Positions 1 through 35,975 of a stretch of 61,564 bases of DNA are shown piece after piece. Position 1 is the first letter of the stretch, and each line of letters begins with the position of its first letter. A model generated the notes under the pieces. The model had not been told where the DNA came from, ran no database searches, and saw only the letters and a program-made list of their open reading frames with translations. Both the position numbers and the translations under genes were made by a program. This DNA is from Candidatus Woesearchaeota archaeon (GTDB lineage Archaea; Nanobdellota; Nanobdellia; Woesearchaeales; ARS49): assembly GCA_014729555.1 (NCBI GenBank), contig WJJT01000036.1, positions 1 through 61,564 on the forward strand, read 5' to 3'.

Positions 1-395
1 CTTGCTACATCGATGTCGGCTCTTCCTATCCTGGCAGTGCATAAGCTGCCAAGGGTGAGGGGGTTCACCTATCAAAAGGGATCGTTAGCTGGGTTCACAA
101 CGCTGTGAGGCAGTTGGTATAATATCTACTGGAGATGTTAGACGTCTGAGGGGAAGGACGCCATAGTACGAGAGGAACTGGCGTTCGAGGCCACTAGTCT
201 ACCGGTTATCTGACAAGGTATCAAGCCGGGCAGCCACGCCTTGGGGGATAAGTCCTGAAAGCATCTAAGGATGAAGCCCTCCTCGAAAAGAGACATCTTA
301 GAACATAGCTAAAAGAGCTGTTTGATGGGATCGGCGTGTAAGCGCAAAGGTAACGATGCGTTCAGCGTGCGATTTCCAACGTTCATCCCCAGTAT
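1..395 (+). rRNA. rrl: 3'-terminal ~0.4 kb of large-subunit (23S) rRNA (domains V-VI), truncated by the window start; 3' boundary approximate
   Basis: Universally conserved LSU strings read directly: CGATGTCGGCTCTTCC at 11-26 (peptidyl-transferase central loop), sarcin-ricin loop AGTACGAGAGGAAC at 165-178, GAAAGCATCTAAG at 257-269. No long ORF. Confidence 0.9.
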
Positions 396-500
396 TTTTG
401 GTCTAGCACGGTTTCATTTAATTTTTTAAGAAAATGAACGCAAACACATTTAATCCGTTTTTGAAAGCAAAAATCATCGAGTAATTTTCATAGCGTTAGC

Positions 501-559
501 GCTCGATGATGAAAAAGATTCTTCTGATTTTATGATGATAACCGACATCGGCTGAGAGC
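501..559 (+). ncRNA. C/D box sRNA (2'-O-methylation guide), 59 nt
   Basis: C box ATGATGA 506-512, D' CTGA 524-527, C' ATGATGA 532-538, D CTGA 552-555. Guide spacers are 11 and 13 nt. Terminal stem GCTC(501-504)/GAGC(556-559). D guide 540-551 is complementary to 23S positions 10-21 of this window. Confidence 0.8.
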
Positions 560-563
560 TTAA

Positions 564-588
564 TCTTTTTTGTTTTCTTTTTTTCTTT
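564..588 (+). terminator. Oligo-T tract downstream of the sRNA / rRNA operon
   Basis: CTTTTTTGTTTTCTTTTTTTCTTT directly follows the sRNA terminal stem. Archaeal termination typically uses T runs. Confidence 0.4.
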
Positions 589-596
589 CGAAATTC

Positions 597-629
597 TTCC
601 GGATTTTTTGAGCAAAAACATATAAAGAC
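597..629 (+). promoter_or_regulatory. Promoter, member of the extended CCGGA...GCAAA..CATATAAAG family
   Basis: TTCCGGATTTTTTGAGCAAAAACATATAAAGAC. The TATA ends 23 nt before the ATG at 650. Confidence 0.55.
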
Positions 630-649
630 TTAAACATGCATTATACCAC

Positions 650-1114
650 ATGGTTACTGCACGAAACTTTAAGGATCTTGAAATTTATCATTTAGCTCAC
701 CAGTTTGTTCTCGACATTTACGAACTTGTAAAGGACTTTCCAAAATCCGAAGATAATAATTTAACTTCTCAATTACGAAGAGCTGCAACTTGCTTGCCTC
801 TCAATATTGCAGAAGGCTCTGGCGCGAATTCCAATAAAATTTTCTTGAACTTTCTTATCTTTTGCTACCGCTCCTGTCTTGAGTGCGAAGCCTGCCTGCG
901 ATTAAGCAAGGATCTTGGCTACATTAACGAGCAAAAGTTCGGCATTTATTTTGAGAAGCTCGACAGGTTCATAAGAAAGCTTTACCGCTACATGCAGTAT
1001 CTTGAGGACAGCACAGGAAACAGGAAGAAAGACAGGTCTGATTATTACAGGCAAAGCAAGCATTATTTTGATGACAATATGAAGAAAAGAAAAAGTATGC
1101 GGGCTTTATGTTAA
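650..1114 (+). CDS. Four-helix-bundle protein of the 23S rRNA intervening-sequence (S23-like) family
   Basis: N-terminal FKDLEIYHLAHQFVLDIYELVKDFPK...LTSQLRRAA.S...NIAEG pattern is typical of this family. Own promoter motif upstream. Confidence 0.7.
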   Translation: MVTARNFKDLEIYHLAHQFVLDIYELVKDFPKSEDNNLTSQLRRAATCLPLNIAEGSGANSNKIFLNFLIFCYRSCLECEACLRLSKDLGYINEQKFGIYFEKLDRFIRKLYRYMQYLEDSTGNRKKDRSDYYRQSKHYFDDNMKKRKSMRALC

Positions 1115-5176: not shown

Positions 5177-5862
5177 GGAACATCAACAAAAGTAGCTCTT
5201 TTTTTCCAGTTCTGCAAAGGGATTTCACCAAAATCACAATCCTTGCAAGTCCAGTCAAGATAAATCCAGTCATCATTCTTCAGGGTGCCTGGAGCATCTG
5301 CAATCTTGACGCGAACATAAGCATGCCTGGCAATAAAAACAAGCTGTGCATCAATGCCGATAGCCTCCTGAAGAGACGCAAGGGCAATAGAACCAGACTC
5401 ACAATCCCCGCCGCCTGCAACAAGAAACTCCTTAGGATCCTCAACATACTCAACACCCTGCGGGTCTGAAACATACTCATAATTATCCCGCAGGAAATAA
5501 AACAAAGCCTTAGAGTAACAGAGCAGGCCCTCTTTACAGGAAGCAGTCACAATCTTGTTGGCAGTGAGCTTAATCTTCTGGTCAGAAGGATTAACCAACT
5601 CCTTTAAATCCTCCTGACTGACAGAATTCTTTGGCTCTGAAACATCCTTCTCCATGCCATGAGCCAGGGCCTTTCCGACAGAGGTAATCCTCTTAGGCTC
5701 TTCATACGCCCTGATCCATTGGTAAGGAAACATATACAGAATCACAATCATCACAAGAAAAAGCCCTACAAGTAGCCAGACCCATTTTCTTGACTTGTGC
5801 TCTCTGTGCGGCTCTTTATCAATTTTTCTCGCTTCCTTCAGGACGTCCTCAGGCGTCATCAA
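5173..5862 (-). CDS. Membrane-anchored transglutaminase-like (papain-fold) protein
   Basis: One N-terminal TM helix. GGGDCESGSIALASL (Cys), ARHAYVRV (His) and YLDWT (Asp) lie in the order expected for the transglutaminase core. Confidence 0.5.
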   Translation of the reverse strand: MMTPEDVLKEARKIDKEPHREHKSRKWVWLLVGLFLVMIVILYMFPYQWIRAYEEPKRITSVGKALAHGMEKDVSEPKNSVSQEDLKELVNPSDQKIKLTANKIVTASCKEGLLCYSKALFYFLRDNYEYVSDPQGVEYVEDPKEFLVAGGGDCESGSIALASLQEAIGIDAQLVFIARHAYVRVKIADAPGTLKNDDWIYLDWTCKDCDFGEIPLQNWKKRATFVDVP

Positions 5863-6062
5863 ATAAACAGAGTGAAGAAGGATATATAAATTTATGCAAA
5901 AAGCATGTGCACTGCGCGCTTGGTTTTGCTTCTTTAACTGAGTGTTTCTCAGATTTATTTTTATTATAATCTTTTCTGGAGAGCTTTGCAGGCGCTATCA
6001 CACGCCTTTTTAAAAAAAAACAAAGCGTACTGTCTTGTAGAAAGAAAGGCAAATTTATTTTT

Positions 6063-6446
6063 TTACTTCTTTTTTTTCAGCCCTGTAAGGAACTTCTTAA
6101 AGCCAGATGATTTTTTCTTGGATTTCTTTTTAGCCTTTTTTTTTGTTTTCTTCGCCTTTTTCTTTGGCTTCTTTTTTGCTTTTTTTGGCTTCTTTTTTGC
6201 TTTTTTTGGCTTCTTTTTTGCTTTTTTTGGCTTCTTTTTTGCTTTTTTCCCGGCTTTTTTCTTAGGCTTTGACTTTGTTTTCCTGCTCACTGCAGGCTTT
6301 GTAAGAGGCATTTTTTCCTCTACAACAGGAGCGAGTGGCTCGAAAATCAAGCCGCAGTCCCTGCAGATAATCTGCTCTCTTACAGTGCCGTGTATTATGT
6401 TCGTGCTTCCACAGTCAGGGCATGAAGTTATTTCCTTTAAGTCCAT
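6063..6446 (-). CDS. TFIIB/TFB-type zinc-ribbon protein fused to a ~75-aa poly-lysine tail
   Basis: CPDCGSTNII....ICRDCGLIF is a Cys4 ribbon like the TFB N-terminus, but no cyclin folds follow. The tail is KKPKKAK repeats. Confidence 0.75.
   Translation of the reverse strand: MDLKEITSCPDCGSTNIIHGTVREQIICRDCGLIFEPLAPVVEEKMPLTKPAVSRKTKSKPKKKAGKKAKKKPKKAKKKPKKAKKKPKKAKKKPKKKAKKTKKKAKKKSKKKSSGFKKFLTGLKKKK
6166..6249. repeat. Four tandem copies of a 21-nt unit GGCTTCTTTTTTGCTTTTTTT (coding KKPKKAK on the minus strand)
   Basis: Unit starts at 6166, 6187, 6208 and 6229. The first three units are identical. Confidence 0.9.
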
Positions 6447-8947: not shown

Positions 8948-10816
8948 ATGATAAAAGTAACAGCAAACACAGAGTGGATGGTGGATGACAGAAAATCACT
9001 TTCTGAGAAAGGATACACACCACAACCAAACAGGCTTCTGCCTAACAGCTATCATGACCAGGCTCCTTTTCGCGACGGAGAGCTGGATGACCAAACAGAA
9101 ATCGCTGTTTTTGCAGGAGGAGATGATGATTCTAAAAGACTTGCTGTCAGGATGGCAAAAGAGGCAGTCAGCCTGGGCAAGACAGTAGACCTGTATTACA
9201 GGCCGCATTGGATGCCTACCCAGGAAAGGCTGCCATCAGAACAAGGCAACACATTCCATGCAACAGCCACTGACACTGCAGCATTATCAGACATTGTTAA
9301 AGGACTGAACAGCCCCACAGCCAGAACAAAAAAATTAAGACAGGTGGACGACCTTGCAGCAGACCTGCAAGGAAAACAGTATGGCAGCACATTTGTTGTC
9401 GGAACATACTGGAACAGATCAATTCCTGAGATAAGAGAGCTGGGAAAGCTTACAGGATATTTTGCAAGCGCAGTAGACTGCGAAAAAGGAAACAGCTTCT
9501 TTGCACACTTCATGGAGAGATACCTGCTTGAAATGACAGACGAAATCAGGACTGTTGATTCAAAAAACAGGCAGGTGCTTGAGGACAGGCACAATAGCTT
9601 AAACAAAGACATTATTTTTGTGCATGAACAAGACAGTCCGCTGAAAGGGCTTAAAGTATTGTTCTTACCAGAATTCGACCTTAAGTTAGACATGGTTCCA
9701 AGATGGAGGGCAGAATGGCCTGCAACAAACCTGGGAGACTATGGAATAAGATACAGAGTAAGAGGTGCAGTAGAGGGCCAGACATACAGGCCCACTAAAG
9801 AAGAAAGAAGACAAGACCCAAACAGGGCAAATGTTGAGATAGACCACACAAAATCCGAAGATTCACTAAGAAGAGTAATGCCAGACATAGACTGGGCAGA
9901 TGTAATAGTGTTCCAGAGAACAAGCAACATGTTCTCAAAAAAAGTATTTGACTATGCAAAGGCAACAGGCAAGCCAATAGGATATGACATAGACGACCTG
10001 ACATTCGGGGACAGAGCAATCCCTGTATTCAAGACTATGGGCATTGACAAGAGAGTTGAGGAACAGATGAGGGACGCAGACTTTGTGACAGTAAGCACAG
10101 AGGCGCTAAGAAATGAAGCTGCAAAAGTCCGCGGAAGCACAGACAGCATATTTCAGATAAGAAACAGGCTCCAGCTAAAAGAGCTTGCAAAAATAAAATC
10201 AAGAAAACACGAAGAGAGACACAATGATATTAGAATAGGCTGGGCAGGCGGAAGCGTACACAAGCCAAAACTGCTAGAATCAAAAAGCATGGTGCATGAC
10301 TTATATGACAAGTACGGCCATGAGGTTACATTTGTACTTAAAGGATTTGATCCACAATCAACTCATTTCCAGGAAATCTGCGATGCATTCAGAGAAGGCG
10401 GAAGAGATGTGAGAATAGAGGGATACGGATACACCCCCACAAAGAGCTGGACAGACTATTACAGGGACCTTAAGGCACTTGACCTGGACATATTCTTTGC
10501 ACCAGCAAGAGATGACTCTGAACACTATGGAAAGAGCGAGCTAAAATACCTTGAAGCAACACACACGGGTGTGCCAATAGTAACACCTGCAGTGGGTGAA
10601 CACGCATGCGTGATAAAGCACGGAATCAATGGCATGCTTGCAGACGTGAAAGACATGAACAACACAATGTTTGCTTGCATAGACCAGCTGATCCAGAATC
10701 CTGCACTAAGAGACAAAATCACAAGAAATGCAAGAAGAAGAATTGCAAAAGATTATGACGTCAGCAAAAGCGGAGAGGAACTGCACAACCTGCTAAGACA
10801 GGTATTACAAAAATAA
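8948..10816 (+). CDS. Large protein with a C-terminal GT-B (family 1-like) glycosyltransferase domain; N-terminal half unassigned
   Basis: IGWAGGSVHKPKL... and ELKYLEATHTGVPIVTP.VGEHACVI.HG.NG.L resemble the GT1 C-terminal nucleotide-sugar binding half. Confidence 0.5.
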   Translation: MIKVTANTEWMVDDRKSLSEKGYTPQPNRLLPNSYHDQAPFRDGELDDQTEIAVFAGGDDDSKRLAVRMAKEAVSLGKTVDLYYRPHWMPTQERLPSEQGNTFHATATDTAALSDIVKGLNSPTARTKKLRQVDDLAADLQGKQYGSTFVVGTYWNRSIPEIRELGKLTGYFASAVDCEKGNSFFAHFMERYLLEMTDEIRTVDSKNRQVLEDRHNSLNKDIIFVHEQDSPLKGLKVLFLPEFDLKLDMVPRWRAEWPATNLGDYGIRYRVRGAVEGQTYRPTKEERRQDPNRANVEIDHTKSEDSLRRVMPDIDWADVIVFQRTSNMFSKKVFDYAKATGKPIGYDIDDLTFGDRAIPVFKTMGIDKRVEEQMRDADFVTVSTEALRNEAAKVRGSTDSIFQIRNRLQLKELAKIKSRKHEERHNDIRIGWAGGSVHKPKLLESKSMVHDLYDKYGHEVTFVLKGFDPQSTHFQEICDAFREGGRDVRIEGYGYTPTKSWTDYYRDLKALDLDIFFAPARDDSEHYGKSELKYLEATHTGVPIVTPAVGEHACVIKHGINGMLADVKDMNNTMFACIDQLIQNPALRDKITRNARRRIAKDYDVSKSGEELHNLLRQVLQK

Positions 10817-16108: not shown

Positions 16109-16642
16109 ATGCAAGAGATGGAAGTAAAAGTAATTGACATCAACAAAGAAGAGATAATCAAAAAATTATTGGAATTAGGCGCTGAAAAAGTATTTGAGGG
16201 AGACATACAAGCAAGCTCTTATGATTTTGAGGATAACCGATTGGCAAAAGACCACGCATTCATCAGATTAAGGAAAAAAGGAGACAAGACATTCCTGACA
16301 TACAAGAAAAAGATAAATCAAGATTATGCAAAAGTTATGCAAGAGCTAGAGACAGAAGTAAAAGACTTTGATGAGATGCAAAAAATACTTCTTGCAGCTG
16401 GATTAAAGGCTGCAAAGGATCTTGACAGAAAGAAAAGGACATCTTTCCAGATTGATAACATATTGTTTGAGATAGACGAACATGAAAACGTTCCTGCTTA
16501 CATGGAGATAGAAGCTCCTACTTTAGACCTGATAAATGAATATGTTGAGAAGCTGGGGCTTGACAAGGAAAAAGTAAAAACCTGGACAGGAAAAGAACTA
16601 CTGGAGCACTATGGAATCAAAGTTGATTTCATGAGAGTCTGA
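16109..16642 (+). CDS. CYTH-domain protein (CyaB-like class IV cyclase / triphosphatase fold)
   Basis: N-terminal EVKV (ExExK-type), IRLRKKGDK.FLTYKKK, FEIDEH....YMEIE. Confidence 0.7.
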   Translation: MQEMEVKVIDINKEEIIKKLLELGAEKVFEGDIQASSYDFEDNRLAKDHAFIRLRKKGDKTFLTYKKKINQDYAKVMQELETEVKDFDEMQKILLAAGLKAAKDLDRKKRTSFQIDNILFEIDEHENVPAYMEIEAPTLDLINEYVEKLGLDKEKVKTWTGKELLEHYGIKVDFMRV

Positions 16643-16677
16643 AAATCCTCCGGAAAAATCTGGCAAAGGCATATAAA
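16639..16677 (+). promoter_or_regulatory. Promoter-bearing direct repeat C (left flank of PIN/RHH cassette 2)
   Basis: CTGAAAATCCTCCGGAAAAATCTGGCAAAGGCATATAAA is 39/39 identical to 17417-17455. TATA ends 22 nt before the ATG at 16700. Confidence 0.8.
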
Positions 16678-16699
16678 AACAAATTTCTAAAATTAATTC

Positions 16700-17416: not shown

Positions 17417-17455
17417 CTGAAAATCCTCCGGAAAAATCTGGCAAAGGCATATAAA
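17417..17455 (+). promoter_or_regulatory. Promoter-bearing direct repeat D (right flank of cassette 2)
   Basis: 39/39 identical to repeat C. TATA ends 22 nt before the ATG at 17478. Confidence 0.8.
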
Positions 17456-17477
17456 GACTATTTTCTGTAAATATTAA

Positions 17478-23656: not shown

Positions 23657-24712
23657 ATGCAAGAGATAGCAAGATGGAAAATACGGCCTTCAGCAGTCGG
23701 AGACATATACGGAAAAAACCTTGAGCTGGAGAGAAGAATAATACCAGTATACAAGCCAATACTAATAGGCACATTAGCAGGGCATTTTCAAGACAATAAA
23801 GGAGAGTGGAGCTATGAGCTTCTTGAGATAGATGAAGAGACAAACAACACACTAATTAAGAGAATGCTTCAAAAAAAGCCTCAGCTGGAGAGTGTTGTGA
23901 ACAATGCAGGGTTTCAGCAGGTTCTCAGGATAAATCCCGCCAGATACAGGCACATATCCAGGTTTCATGCAATACTGGGCACAAAACAGGGTAATTTGTA
24001 CATTGCAGACCTAGAGAGCAAGAATGGCATATACACAGGCCTGCCTGCAGAACAAACACGCTCTGCAATACTGCGAGATGGACAGATAATATACTTAGGC
24101 GGCAAAGCAAAAGACAGTGCGCAGATAAAAGTACATGAAGCAATTAGTAAGGCATATGCACTGCTTGTAGGAGTTGATTACAAAAACCAGAACAGCAAAG
24201 TAATTGAAAAAGAGATTTGGCAAATAGATCAAATGCTCAGAAAACTGGGCGTGCCGTATGAATGCAGAACATTAAAACACAGCCATGCAACAAAAGAAAA
24301 CATCACAAGTTATCTGCAAAGAGCAGAAAGCCTGCCAGAAAACAACCTTTTCTTTTTCTTTTGTGGCGCACATGGAAGCAAAGCAGCAATATCGTCAGCA
24401 GATGGAAAGCTTGCAAAACAAGAGCTGGCCGGGCTGCTGAACAGGATACAAGCAAAAAAAATCATGATAATAGACATATGCCATGCCTGGGGCGGCTGGC
24501 AGGAGCTTGACCTTGACAGCGGGCTGTATTTTTTCTCTTCACAAGAAGAGGAAACAGCAAAATGGGGGGGATTCACACCAGGATTAGCAGAAAGAATTGC
24601 AGAATTACTAAACAAAAAAGAGCCAATTGACATGAAACAAATAAGAATCAATGACCTGGCAAGAGCGCACACACCAGCAAAAAAAGGAAACAAGTCAATA
24701 ATACTGTATTAA
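23657..24712 (+). CDS. FHA domain fused to a caspase-like (peptidase C14 fold) domain
   Basis: FHA: ISRFHAIL and ESKNGIYTG. Caspase-like: ALLVGVDYKN (strand 1), FFFCGAHG (catalytic His) and MIIDICHAWGG (catalytic Cys), in the canonical order and spacing. Confidence 0.7.
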   Translation: MQEIARWKIRPSAVGDIYGKNLELERRIIPVYKPILIGTLAGHFQDNKGEWSYELLEIDEETNNTLIKRMLQKKPQLESVVNNAGFQQVLRINPARYRHISRFHAILGTKQGNLYIADLESKNGIYTGLPAEQTRSAILRDGQIIYLGGKAKDSAQIKVHEAISKAYALLVGVDYKNQNSKVIEKEIWQIDQMLRKLGVPYECRTLKHSHATKENITSYLQRAESLPENNLFFFFCGAHGSKAAISSADGKLAKQELAGLLNRIQAKKIMIIDICHAWGGWQELDLDSGLYFFSSQEEETAKWGGFTPGLAERIAELLNKKEPIDMKQIRINDLARAHTPAKKGNKSIILY

Positions 24713-26004: not shown

Positions 26005-26034
26005 ATTCTTTATATGCCTTTGCCAGAAAAACCC
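26005..26034 (-). promoter_or_regulatory. Promoter of the kinase gene (CGGGTTTTTCTGGCAAAGGCATATAAAGA on the minus strand)
   Basis: Shares 21 identical nt (TCTGGCAAAGGCATATAAAGA) with repeat D at 17437-17457. TATA lies 23 nt before the ATG. Confidence 0.6.
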
Positions 26035-26139
26035 GAAATATTTGCGAAAAAACTGAAAATCTGAAAACTTGCCATCAGAGCGAAATATTTATATAGAAAA
26101 TAAATAGAGTTGAGTATAATATAGAAAAGAGATGAATAA

Positions 26140-35598: not shown

Positions 35599-35859
35599 AC
35601 TCACTTTTTCTTTAATTTGTTATTCTAAGCCAGTATTCCTGGGTTTAAGCCTAATCCAGAACCACTGTTAAAACTACCCAAAATTACCTCAAAGCCAGTG
35701 ATTGAGAATACCTATTTTTCACGCCTTGTTAGCCAAAAATCTAATGGTGCCTAAACCTCGCCGCTCTTAAATTCAGGGATTTTCCCTGCATTAATATTCA
35801 AATTTTTCCTGGAAACAATTGTTCGCTCTTGTTATCCTCACTTTTCAAAGGTGGAAAAA

Positions 35860-35975
35860 TTTGGTTAGTATTTCAGAATATATTTTATAATATTACTTTT
35901 GTATTATGTTTTTTATTATGTGTTTAAGTTAGTCTATTGTGTTTTAATCAATGTTTTGTTTAATTTATCTCGTAA
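35860..35975. other. AT-rich block of roughly 115 bp (candidate DNA unwinding element)
   Basis: TATATTTTATAATATTACTTTTGTATTATGTTTTTTATTATGTGTTTAAG... Flanked by CCTCACTTTT (35836-35845) and its inverse AAAAGTGAGAGTT (36088-36100). Confidence 0.4.

What the first reader, a model, noticed from the sequence alone, without database searches (positions are those of the whole stretch)
471..590. C/D box sRNA just 3' of the 23S rRNA, with a guide complementary to the peptidyl-transferase loop of that 23S
Canonical boxes and a terminal stem are present (see feature 501-559). The D guide (540-551, AACCGACATCGG) pairs with window positions 10-21 of the 23S (TCGATGTCGGCT). That is nine contiguous Watson-Crick pairs plus one G-U, then one mismatch and one further pair. 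By the N+5 rule the modified residue would be the U of CGAUGUC at window position 14. From my recollection of E. coli numbering this is near 2504, in the domain V central loop. A guide RNA co-located, and probably co-transcribed, with its own rRNA target is notable. A 9-bp inverted repeat (473-481 / 502-510) could sequester the C box in the precursor. The D' guide (AAAAGATTCTT) has no target in this window.
Basis: partly seen in the sequence, partly recalled or inferred. Interest (0 to 1): 0.65.

Follow-up and report, generated by a model that had tools for sequence, protein, structure and literature searches.

The report
Archaeal methylation guide RNA beside 23S
A real-looking archaeal box C/D guide RNA gene lies just after the 23S rRNA gene and is predicted to direct ribose methylation of U2504 in the ribosome's catalytic centre, but it is an ordinary member of a known RNA class and its position beside the rRNA is a recent, lineage-specific insertion.

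Summary
Window 501-559 (+) has a complete box C/D sRNA layout: a 4-bp terminal stem at the correct k-turn offset, then C, D', C' and D boxes. This layout occurs once in 61.5 kb and never in 300 simulated windows. The D guide forms 10 contiguous pairs with window 10-19, and the N+5 rule points to U14, which is E. coli U2504.

The same guide in the same register occurs in unrelated archaea: crenarchaeal sRNAs, the published Ignicoccus sR204, and two low-GC archaeal contigs. In those two contigs the guide differs by one base, and that base matches a 23S variant (CGCUG) found in relatives.

The co-transcription idea is not supported. Five close Woesearchaeota-like relatives have the same 23S end and the same downstream gene but no sRNA. 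The sRNA lies in a unique insert of about 130-160 nt, beyond a T-run that follows the 23S processing stem in every relative examined. Other sRNAs aimed at U2504 are not linked to rRNA. The 9-bp inverted repeat exists but is not beyond chance. The D' guide target is unresolved.

Verdict: a new member of a known kind, of moderate interest.

The parts
1..398 (+). 3' 398 nt of the archaeal 23S rRNA (domain V central loop to the 3' end); this is the target RNA
   Evidence: Rfam RF02540 LSU_rRNA_archaea, 372.7 bits, model positions 2586-2987, cut at the 5' end
10..19 (+). Target site UCGAUGUCGG (E. coli U2500-G2509). U14, equivalent to U2504, is the predicted 2'-O-methylated residue
   Evidence: Ten contiguous pairs with guide nucleotides 551-542; duplex energy -16.8 kcal/mol; p about 0.003-0.004; E. 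coli motif position
389..417 (+). 3' strand of the 23S processing helix (CCAGUAUUUUUGGUCUAGCACGGUUUCAU), inferred by homology
   Evidence: In L086 and L085 the homologous 3' flank co-folds with the 23S 5' flank (-52 and -48.5 kcal/mol) and the helix ends at ...UUUCAU just before the T-run. The flank is conserved in the window, L083, L097, L098 and L101
418..427 (+). UUAAUUUUUU, with T6 at 422-427: the likely rRNA-operon terminator (inferred)
   Evidence: A run of at least 5 T directly after the processing stem in all relatives: L083, L097, L098-L100, L101, L085, L086, L103, L104, L105. Oligo-T termination in archaea is as cited in PMC3491384
429..500 (+). Lineage-specific spacer upstream of the sRNA. 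It holds a box-A-like CATTTAAT (447-454, a duplicate of 415-422), a T5 run (458-462), the left copy of a flanking direct repeat (458-477) and the left arm of the 9-bp inverted repeat (473-481)
   Evidence: Absent from L083, L097, L098 and L101; repeats
501..559 (+). Box C/D sRNA gene, 59 nt
501..504 (+). 5' strand of the terminal stem (GCUC), pairing with 556-559 (GAGC). G505, A506 and U507 form the 3-nt k-turn bulge
   Evidence: Read from the sequence; loose scan with the k-turn offset
506..512 (+). C box AUGAUGA
513..523 (+). D' guide AAAAGAUUCUU (11 nt); target unresolved
   Evidence: The best candidate is 16S GAGAAUCU(U/C)AC in five relatives, but 14% of shuffled guides do as well. A perfect 9-nt complement lies at 562-570
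524..527 (+). D' box CUGA
532..538 (+). C' box AUGAUGA, 4 nt after the D' box (k-loop)
539..551 (+). D guide UAACCGACAUCGG (13 nt). Nucleotides 542-551 pair with the 23S; A547 is the N+5 position
   Evidence: The same guide core and register occurs in L009, L039, L087, L096, L094, L092 and L095
552..555 (+). D box CUGA
556..559 (+). 3' strand of the terminal stem (GAGC)
560..588 (+). T-rich trailer and terminator: T6 at 566-571, T4 at 573-576, T7 at 578-584. Positions 562-570 are complementary to 512-520
   Evidence: The stretch aligns with the post-23S T-rich stretch of L098
605..621 (+). Right copy of the imperfect direct repeat that brackets the sRNA module. It is part of the conserved promoter cassette of the IVP gene (TATA CATATAAAG at about 619-627)
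   Evidence: Local alignment of 458-477 with 605-621, score reached by 38 of 2000 shuffles; promoter cassette

Best explanation
Window 501-559 (+) is a genuine box C/D sRNA gene of a Woesearchaeota-like (DPANN) archaeon.

Inferred mechanism, taken from the well-studied archaeal C/D RNP:
- L7Ae binds the terminal C/D k-turn and the internal C'/D' k-loop.
- A Nop5 dimer and two fibrillarins assemble on the RNA.
- The D guide (542-551) forms a 10-bp duplex with 23S nucleotides 2500-2509 (window 10-19) while domain V is still unfolded.
- Fibrillarin then 2'-O-methylates the residue paired to the fifth guide nucleotide upstream of box D. That residue is U14, equivalent to U2504, in the peptidyl-transferase-centre ring.

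Genomic setting:
- The gene lies in a lineage-specific insert of about 130-160 nt. The insert sits in a hypervariable spacer between the T-run that follows the 23S processing stem and the promoter of the next gene.
- Its adjacency to the target gene is therefore recent and probably incidental.
- It may be made from a weak promoter of its own (box-A-like TTTAAT at 449-454) or by read-through of the T6 and T5 runs. This is not resolved.
- It ends at its own T6/T7 terminator (566-584).

What is shown: the sequence architecture, the complementarity, the recurrence of the guide in other archaea, and the absence of the gene in relatives.
What is inferred: expression, RNP assembly and methylation.
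For: - Complete C/D/D'/C' architecture with a correctly offset terminal stem.
- It is unique in 61.5 kb, and 0 of 300 simulated windows contain such a site.
- About 35-40 Rfam C/D families align end to end below threshold.
- Ten box-anchored pairs with the genome's own 23S, p about 0.003-0.004.
- The same guide core CCGACAUCGG+CUGA in the same register occurs in crenarchaeal C/D sRNAs (L009 Sulfolobales, L039 Zestomicrobium, L087, L096).
- It also occurs as the D' guide of the RNA-seq-detected Ignicoccus hospitalis sR204, whose published predicted target is 23S U2778 in alignment numbering. The offset of about 274 gives E. coli U2504 (PMC4644070).
- L092 and L095 (archaeal, GC 27-34%) carry ACCGACAGCGG+CUGA. 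This differs from the window's guide only at the base opposite position 2503, and it matches the CGCUG 23S variant seen in L085, L086 and L101.
- The gene lies in an intergenic spacer, on the rRNA strand, and is followed by oligo-T runs.
- DPANN archaea are known to use C/D RNPs. N. equitans has 26 sRNAs plus fibrillarin NEQ125 and Nop56 NEQ342, and its C/D sRNA genes are described as mobile (PMC3491384).
- Insertion footprint: the element is absent in L083, L097, L098-L100 and L101, and an imperfect direct repeat flanks it.
Against: - There are no expression or modification data.
- The gene is not conserved at this locus in the five nearest relatives. It was not found by two collection-wide pattern scans apart from distant analogues. 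Purifying selection on this copy is therefore not demonstrated.
- The guide spacers are 11 and 13 nt rather than the canonical 12 and 12.
- The D' guide has no convincing target.
- No L7Ae, Nop5 or fibrillarin gene was found among about 50 ORFs of the window. However, 61 kb is only a small part of a genome.
- The target lies within the first 21 nt of the contig, and related contigs break or vary at exactly this place.
- The guide/23S covariation for L092 and L095 could not be verified within one genome.
Confidence: 0.72

Rival explanations
1. One reading: the sRNA is part of the rRNA primary transcript. It would be released from the 3' trailer after cleavage of the 23S processing stem. It would act in cis, or at least be produced in step with the nascent 23S it methylates. 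The 473-481/502-510 hairpin would hold the C box inactive in the precursor.
For: - The sRNA is on the same strand, only about 100 nt beyond the 23S end.
- No strong TATA box lies at -26 from position 501.
- In N. equitans most C/D sRNAs lack promoters of their own and are processed from longer transcripts (PMC3491384).
- Two perfect 9-bp inverted repeats link the sRNA's 5' part to both flanks. Jointly they occur in about 3.5% of simulations. The left arm would be transcribed only from an upstream start.
- The T-rich stretch after the sRNA aligns with the post-23S T-stretch of L098. The sRNA may therefore have been inserted upstream of the ancestral terminator.
Against: - T6 (422-427) and T5 (458-462) lie between the 23S and the sRNA. 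A T-run directly after the processing stem is conserved in all ten relative loci, where no sRNA follows.
- The linkage is not conserved in any relative.
- Analogous U2504 guides elsewhere are not linked to rRNA.
- A single 9-bp inverted repeat is expected in 20% of random spacers.
Confidence: 0.2
2. It is a non-functional relic or a chance look-alike: a recently transposed or duplicated sRNA copy, or a fortuitous box arrangement, that is not expressed or not assembled into an RNP.
For: - It is present only in this lineage among those sampled.
- Spacer lengths are 11 and 13 nt.
- The D' guide is an orphan.
- The surrounding spacer is a patchwork of short duplications.
Against: - All four boxes are perfect consensus and the terminal stem is intact.
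- The guide matches the genome's own 23S variant over the maximum useful 10 bp and in the exact register used by independent archaeal sRNAs.
- 0 of 300 simulated windows produce such an architecture.
- A decaying copy would be expected to show box or guide mutations.
Confidence: 0.08
3. It is a C/D RNP that acts mainly as an rRNA folding or processing chaperone rather than as a methylation guide. It would hold the 2500-2509 strand open during domain V assembly. Alternatively, its D' guide would pair with its own 3' trailer or with 16S.
For: - The D' guide is complementary to 562-570 and weakly to a conserved 16S segment.
- Dennis et al. discuss roles of archaeal C/D guides in the folding and structural stabilisation of rRNA (PMC4644070).
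Against: - The duplex is in the canonical N+5 register with a canonical D box. Nothing in the sequence suggests the RNP would be methylation-dead.
- The D' matches are not better than chance.
Confidence: 0.05

Closest known systems
Ignicoccus hospitalis C/D box sRNA sR204 (Dennis et al. 2015, PMC4644070)
   Same: It has the guide core GCCGACAUCGG followed by a box. The published predicted target, 23S U2778 in alignment numbering, corresponds to E. coli U2504, the same nucleotide.
   Different: In sR204 the guide is the D' guide, next to a degenerate D' box (AGGA). Its other guide targets G2744, which lies nearby in 23S. It comes from a hyperthermophilic crenarchaeon and is not adjacent to the rRNA operon as far as is reported. 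No sequence homology is evident outside the guide and boxes.
Crenarchaeal C/D sRNA family found here (L009 Sulfolobales MAG, L039 Ca. Zestomicrobium, L087, L096)
   Same: The D guide (A/G)UCCGACAUCGG+CUGA has the same 10-bp duplex, register and N+5 residue. The overall 12-4-3-7-12-4 layout is the same.
   Different: The D' guide is different (GAGCUCCCCUUC). These sRNAs are not next to rRNA, belong to a different phylum, and have canonical 12-nt spacers where the window has 11 and 13.
Low-GC archaeal sRNAs L092 and L095 (metagenome contigs)
   Same: The C' box, D guide and D box are almost identical to the window's (GACCGACAGCGG CUGA). They probably share ancestry in the D-guide half.
   Different: One guide base (G instead of U) matches the CGCUG 23S variant rather than CGAUG. 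The D' guide is different. L092 lies 30 nt upstream of tRNA-Ala(UGC) and L095 lies between protein genes. The proteins are only about 40% identical to those of the window's clade.
Nanoarchaeum equitans C/D box sRNAs (Randau 2012, PMC3491384)
   Same: They come from a DPANN archaeon with a reduced genome that keeps compact C/D sRNAs and the RNP proteins. Many lack promoters of their own. Gene mobility, insertion at gene borders and tRNA-sRNA dicistrons are reported.
   Different: No N. equitans sRNA in the Dennis supplement contains the CGACAUCG core. N. equitans sRNAs reportedly lack paired termini, whereas this one has a 4-bp stem.
C/D guide inside the tRNA-Trp intron of Haloferax volcanii and other euryarchaea (from my own knowledge)
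   Same: It is the precedent for a guide encoded in the same transcript as its target.
   Different: In that case the linkage is conserved and the guide lies inside the precursor. Here the linkage is lineage-specific, and T-runs separate the guide from the target gene.
Bacterial protein-only modifications of the same strand: Cm2498 (RlmM), m2A2503 (RlmN), Psi2504 (RluC) (from my own knowledge; RlmM is the subject of PMC3488215)
   Same: The same PTC strand, 2498-2504, is a modification hotspot. U2504 itself is modified in E. coli.
   Different: The chemistry differs (pseudouridine versus the predicted 2'-O-methyl) and the enzymes are stand-alone rather than RNA-guided.

Membership tests
Archaeal box C/D sRNA (2'-O-methylation guide) | C box RUGAUGA near the 5' end and D box CUGA near the 3' end | tested here: met
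   AUGAUGA at 506-512 and CUGA at 552-555
Archaeal box C/D sRNA (2'-O-methylation guide) | Terminal k-turn: a short canonical stem, a 3-nt bulge, and tandem G-A pairs between the C and D boxes | tested here: met
   501-504 pairs with 556-559 (4 bp) with G505, A506 and U507 bulged. G508-A509 lies opposite G554-A555. Judged by sequence geometry only
Archaeal box C/D sRNA (2'-O-methylation guide) | Internal D' and C' boxes separated by a 3-9-nt loop (k-loop) | tested here: met
   CUGA 524-527, UUUU, AUGAUGA 532-538
Archaeal box C/D sRNA (2'-O-methylation guide) | Guide spacers of about 12 nt between the boxes; total length about 50-60 nt | tested here: inconclusive
   The spacers are 11 and 13 nt and sum to 24 as in relatives with 12+12. 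Box-to-box length is 50 nt against 48-49 in L092, L095 and L009. Length with the stem is 59 nt
Archaeal box C/D sRNA (2'-O-methylation guide) | A guide forms at least 9-10 bp with rRNA or tRNA directly upstream of box D or D', placing a conserved residue at N+5 | tested here: met
   The D guide forms 10 contiguous pairs, with U14 (U2504) at N+5; p about 0.003-0.004. The D' guide does not meet this feature
Archaeal box C/D sRNA (2'-O-methylation guide) | The same target site is guided in other archaea | tested here: met
   L009, L039, L087, L096, L094, L092 and L095; I. hospitalis sR204 with target U2778
Archaeal box C/D sRNA (2'-O-methylation guide) | Genes for L7Ae, Nop5 and fibrillarin are present in the genome | not testable with these tools
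   None was found among about 50 ORFs of the 61.5-kb window. The rest of the genome is not available. The proteins are present in the DPANN archaeon N. equitans
Archaeal box C/D sRNA (2'-O-methylation guide) | Expressed as a stable small RNA, with 2'-O-methyl present at the predicted residue | not testable with these tools
   No transcriptome or modification data are available
Any specific Rfam C/D family (for example sR2 RF01139, sR5 RF01304, snoPyro_CD RF00095) | Score at or above the family's gathering threshold | tested here: not met
   The best scores are 24.0 bits against a threshold of 42 (sR2), 23.4 against 40 (sR5) and 20.5 against 45 (snoPyro_CD). It is generic C/D and belongs to no curated family
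Cis-encoded guide, co-transcribed with its target (as in the tRNA-Trp intron C/D) | Guide and target lie in one primary transcript | tested here: inconclusive
   They are on the same strand, about 100 nt apart, but T6 (422-427) and T5 (458-462) intervene. The T-run after the processing stem is conserved in all relatives
Cis-encoded guide, co-transcribed with its target (as in the tRNA-Trp intron C/D) | The linkage of guide and target gene is conserved among relatives | tested here: not met
   The sRNA is absent from the 23S-IVP spacer of L083, L097, L098-L100 and L101, and from the 23S flanks of L085, L086 and L103-L105. Analogous sRNAs are unlinked to rRNA

The most novel reading that the evidence does not exclude
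The sRNA module is a freshly mobilised C/D guide gene that landed inside the terminator region of the rRNA operon. It is bracketed by short direct repeats (458-477/605-621 and 418-428/560-571). It is now made by read-through as part of the pre-rRNA 3' trailer, so the guide for PTC residue U2504 is delivered in cis with its nascent target. The two 9-bp inverted repeats would form a precursor structure that masks the C box and the D' guide until processing. If so, this would be a snapshot of sRNA gene mobility in archaea and the first guide embedded in an rRNA operon.
Probability: 0.15. Interest if true: 0.6.

Novelty: new member of a known kind. Interest (0 to 1): 0.35.

Why it matters
C/D box guides are poorly catalogued outside thermophiles, and almost not at all in uncultured DPANN archaea. 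This example shows that a small-genome, mesophile-like Woesearchaeota lineage probably still invests in RNA-guided methylation of the catalytic-centre nucleotide U2504. Crenarchaea target the same site, and bacteria modify it with a protein enzyme.

Two further points would interest specialists:
- The 2503/2504 dinucleotide varies naturally in this clade (AU, CU, AC), and guide variants exist that match at least two of these versions. This offers a natural covariation test of guide function.
- The presence/absence pattern with flanking repeats is a rare, clean example of a recent C/D sRNA gene insertion. It bears on the open question of how these genes move.

None of this changes the current understanding of the family.

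Tried and rejected
- Exact look-up of the window's IVP protein found nothing on record. The source genome and the rest of its rRNA operon could therefore not be retrieved.
- The genome-contig scan with TGATGAN{28,52}CCGACATCGGCTGA returned 82 stretches. About 80 were chance bacterial matches, including a repeat in one alphaproteobacterial MAG, and only 2 were real archaeal sRNAs. The window's genome is not among the GTDB representatives.
- The metagenome scan returned 10 stretches. Five have a C/D layout; the other five (L088-L091 and L093) lack a C' box and were set aside as chance.
- The D' guide target was searched in the window rRNA fragment and in the 16S, 23S and tRNAs of five relatives. 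The best hit was 8-9 pairs on 16S (E. coli about 974-984), which is not better than shuffled guides.
This is uninformative given the small coverage.
- Linking L092 and L095 to the CGCUG-type 23S lineages by shared proteins failed. Only a LonB-like ATPase is shared, at 36-47% identity, so they are distant.
- Literature searches for 'Um2504', for C/D sRNAs downstream of 23S, and for Woesearchaeota or DPANN with fibrillarin found nothing relevant.
- MFE folding of 399-640 gave z = -0.17, so there is no global structure signal. K-turns are not captured by such folding in any case.
- The bacterial promoter/terminator scanner was not used because it does not model archaeal signals.
- A covariance model was not built. 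Outside the boxes and one guide the sequences share nothing, and regular-expression scans already covered the held loci.
Full report
**1. What is in the sequence**

Window 1-398 is the 3' end of an archaeal 23S rRNA. It matches Rfam LSU_rRNA_archaea at 372.7 bits, model positions 2586-2987. The window has no 5S rRNA and no tRNA.

At 501-559 on the same strand the sequence reads as follows:
- GCUC, 501-504
- G, 505
- AUGAUGA, the C box, 506-512
- AAAAGAUUCUU, the D' guide, 513-523
- CUGA, the D' box, 524-527
- UUUU, spacer, 528-531
- AUGAUGA, the C' box, 532-538
- UAACCGACAUCGG, the D guide, 539-551
- CUGA, the D box, 552-555
- GAGC, 556-559

The four terminal pairs (501-504 with 556-559) start one nucleotide before the C box. 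This leaves G505, A506 and U507 as the 3-nt bulge of a k-turn, which is the geometry expected for L7Ae binding. That expectation rests on established knowledge of C/D k-turns.

**2. Is it more than chance?**

- A strict regular expression for the four boxes with 9-14-nt guides finds only this site on both strands of the 61.5-kb window.
- A looser scan, with degenerate internal boxes and a stem of at least 3 bp at the k-turn offset, also finds only this site.
- The strict expression gave no match in 300 first-order Markov simulations of the window.
- In Rfam E-value mode roughly 35-40 different C/D families align full length to about 501-559. All fall below their gathering scores (sR2 24.0 bits, sR5 23.4, snoPyro_CD 20.5). 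This is the expected signature of a C/D RNA whose guides belong to no curated family.
- Guide nucleotides 551-542 pair with window 10-19 (UCGAUGUCGG) as 1 G-U plus 9 Watson-Crick pairs, at -16.8 kcal/mol.
- A box-anchored run of at least 10 pairs against the 398-nt fragment was reached by 61 of 20000 random guides and 74 of 20000 shuffled guides.

**3. Which nucleotide is targeted**

The fifth guide nucleotide upstream of box D (A547) pairs with U14. The motif CGAUGUCGGCU lies at 2500-2510 in a 2903-nt E. coli RefSeq 23S copy. That copy carries small indels relative to the reference. Using the canonical landmarks ho5C2501, m2A2503, Psi2504 and G2505 (from my own knowledge), the motif is C2501-U2511. 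U14 is therefore U2504, in the PTC ring.

**4. The same guide elsewhere**

*Genome scan.* A scan of 185,579 species-representative genomes returned mostly chance bacterial matches. It also returned two true C/D sRNAs with the D guide AUCCGACAUCGG+CUGA, one in a Sulfolobales MAG and one in Ca. Zestomicrobium of the Desulfurococcaceae.

It found:
- two more members of that crenarchaeal family (L087, L096);
- L094, with guide CACCGACAUCGA;
- L092 and L095, two orthologous sRNAs on archaeal contigs of 27-34% GC, with guide GACCGACAGCGG+CUGA.

*Published precedent.* The supplement of Dennis et al. 2015 lists the RNA-seq-detected Ignicoccus hospitalis sR204. It contains GCCGACAUCGG before its D' box and has the predicted target '23S U2778'. 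The paper equates alignment position 2880 with E. coli C2606. U2778 is therefore U2504.

The site is thus an already predicted C/D target in Crenarchaeota, and the register is identical in all cases (alignment A2).

**5. A natural covariation**

The 23S of relatives is not invariant at this site:
- The window reads CGAUG, and the L098 contig, which begins at AUGUCGG, is consistent with it.
- L085, L086 and L101 read CGCUG (the equivalent of A2503C).
- L103, L104 and L105 read CGACG (the equivalent of U2504C).

The window's guide matches its own AU version. The L092/L095 guide differs at exactly the base opposite 2503. It gives 10 contiguous pairs with the CU version and a mismatch with the AU version.

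This is what guide/target co-evolution predicts. I could not show it within one genome, because L092 and L095 are only distantly related to the Woesearchaeota loci. Both positions tolerate mutation in vitro in E. coli ribosomes (PMC7049736).

**6. Organism and context**

The window's genes are archaeal: LonB, Kae1, RpoL, L1, L10, P1, L35Ae, PAC2 and the CCA-adding enzyme. GC content is about 40%.

The gene after the sRNA (650-1114) is a PF05635 '23S rRNA IVP' four-helix-bundle protein. Its homologues at 50-86% identity are named Woesearchaeota, Nanoarchaeia, Nanoarchaeota or Aenigmarchaeota by their sources. I therefore assign the window to a DPANN archaeon of the Woesearchaeota type.

Contigs carrying the closest homologues share the 23S 3' end, the flank GGUCUAxCACGGUU(U)CAxUUAAUUUUUU and the IVP promoter cassette. 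These contigs are L083 (86% identity), L097 and L098-L100 (84%) and L101 (77%). None has the sRNA. Their spacers are about 15-65 nt or, in L101, hold a DUF2087 gene.

L085 and L086 have one or two extra genes in the same place. L103-L105 have the IVP gene convergent with the 23S.

The spacer is therefore hypervariable. The window's 429-559 (or 429-588) is a lineage-specific insert. Two imperfect direct repeats bracket it:
- 458-477 and 605-621, a score reached by 38 of 2000 shuffles;
- UUAAU(C)UUUUUU at 418-428 and 560-571.

These repeats suggest an insertion or duplication footprint. This fits the 'mobile C/D box sRNAs' idea raised for N. equitans (PMC3491384).

**7. Co-transcription**

In L086 and L085 the 23S 5' and 3' flanks co-fold into the processing helix, whose 3' strand ends at ...UUUCAU. 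By homology the window's 389-417 is that strand.

It is followed at once by UUAAUUUUUU (T6 at 422-427). All ten relative loci have a run of at least 5 T at this place. In archaea an oligo-T run there is the expected terminator (cited in PMC3491384). A second run (T5 at 458-462) follows.

Read-through cannot be excluded. No strong TATA box sits 26 nt before position 501. The best candidate is the box-A-like TTTAAT at 449-454, which would start transcription near 476-480. The genome's usual promoters look like TTTATAAA or CATATAAAG.

I estimate about 20% for co-transcription. Whichever promoter is used, the T6 and T7 runs at 566-584 end the unit before the IVP promoter.

**8. The inverted repeat and the D' guide**

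The 9-bp repeat 473-481/502-510 is exact. A second exact 9-bp repeat links 512-520 (the last A of box C plus the D' guide) to 562-570 in the trailer.

One such repeat occurs in 20% of simulated spacers and two in 3.5%. The pair is mildly suggestive of a precursor structure (MFE -25.9 kcal/mol for 466-575).

The D' guide's best rRNA match is 16S GAGAAUCU(U/C)AC, at about E. coli 974-984, in all five relatives' 16S genes. However, 14% of shuffled guides do as well. It remains an orphan.

**9. Mechanism, known relatives and novelty**

The most likely function is the textbook one: an L7Ae/Nop5/fibrillarin RNP that methylates the 2'-OH of U2504 during large-subunit assembly. Nothing in the sequence argues for a different mechanism.

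It meets every sequence-level criterion for an archaeal C/D sRNA, with one small exception: the spacers are 11 and 13 nt instead of 12 and 12. It belongs to no curated Rfam family. The presence of the RNP proteins and expression could not be tested.

The target is already predicted in Crenarchaeota. C/D RNPs are documented in the DPANN archaeon N. equitans. The adjacency to the 23S is not conserved.

I therefore file it as a new member of a known kind, with moderate interest. The points worth following up are the guide/target covariation at a variable PTC dinucleotide and the clean insertion polymorphism.

Noticed in passing
window 650-1114; L083 295-759; L085 7412-7876; L086 6264-6728; L103-L105 about 10001-10468: The PF05635 '23S rRNA intervening-sequence protein' (four-helix bundle) gene lies beside the 23S 3' end in every Woesearchaeota-like relative fetched. 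It is co-oriented in eight loci and convergent in three. The family is named for genes inside bacterial 23S intervening sequences, so a conserved archaeal linkage to the 23S end is curious.
   Followed up: partly
window 13-14; L085 about 6057-6058; L086 about 5393-5394; L101 8-9; L103 about 11096, L104 about 11522 and L105 about 10919 (minus strand): The PTC dinucleotide equivalent to E. coli A2503-U2504 varies within this clade. It is AU in the window and L098, CU in L085, L086 and L101, and AC in L103-L105. These residues line the binding pocket for phenicol, lincosamide, pleuromutilin and oxazolidinone drugs. Several contigs break within 12 nt of this site.
   Followed up: partly
window 599-628, 16640-16679, 17418-17457, 26007-26046 (minus strand): A promoter cassette of about 40 nt (...UCCGGAAAAAUCUGGCAAAGGCAUAUAAAGA) recurs upstream of four unrelated genes: IVP, a PIN-domain gene, TctA and a Ser/Thr kinase. 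A weaker copy lies before the FHA-domain gene at 23657. The 18-mer core gave 4 hits against 0.18 expected. The cassette is also conserved upstream of the IVP gene in relatives.
   Followed up: partly
L092 11638-11685 and 11717-11788: A C/D sRNA with the variant U2504 guide lies 30 nt upstream of tRNA-Ala(UGC). This could be a dicistronic sRNA-tRNA unit like the tRNA-sRNA precursors described in N. equitans.
   Followed up: no
L085 2724-6495; L086 2779-5830: The L085 23S spans 3771 nt. Both L085 and L086 diverge from the window right after GGCAGUGCAGAA, in the helix 91 region, which suggests rRNA insertions or introns. L086 has no tRNA in its 16S-23S spacer, whereas L085 has one.
   Followed up: no
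window 512-520 / 562-570 and 458-477 / 605-621: The D' guide is perfectly complementary over 9 nt to the sRNA's own 3' trailer. An imperfect direct repeat of 17-20 nt brackets the sRNA module. These may be a precursor structure and an insertion footprint respectively; neither is proven.
   Followed up: partly
window 35600-36530: This stretch of about 0.9 kb has no ORF of 70 aa or more and no credible Rfam match (the best is ARRPOF at 19.6 bits against a threshold of 127). Its nature is unknown.
   Followed up: partly
window 6111-6248 and 38559-38682: Two tandem repeats were found: a T-rich 21-nt unit in about 4-6 copies (98% matches over 6159-6248), and a 66-nt unit in 1.9 copies in an ORF-poor stretch. 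Neither was examined further.
   Followed up: no
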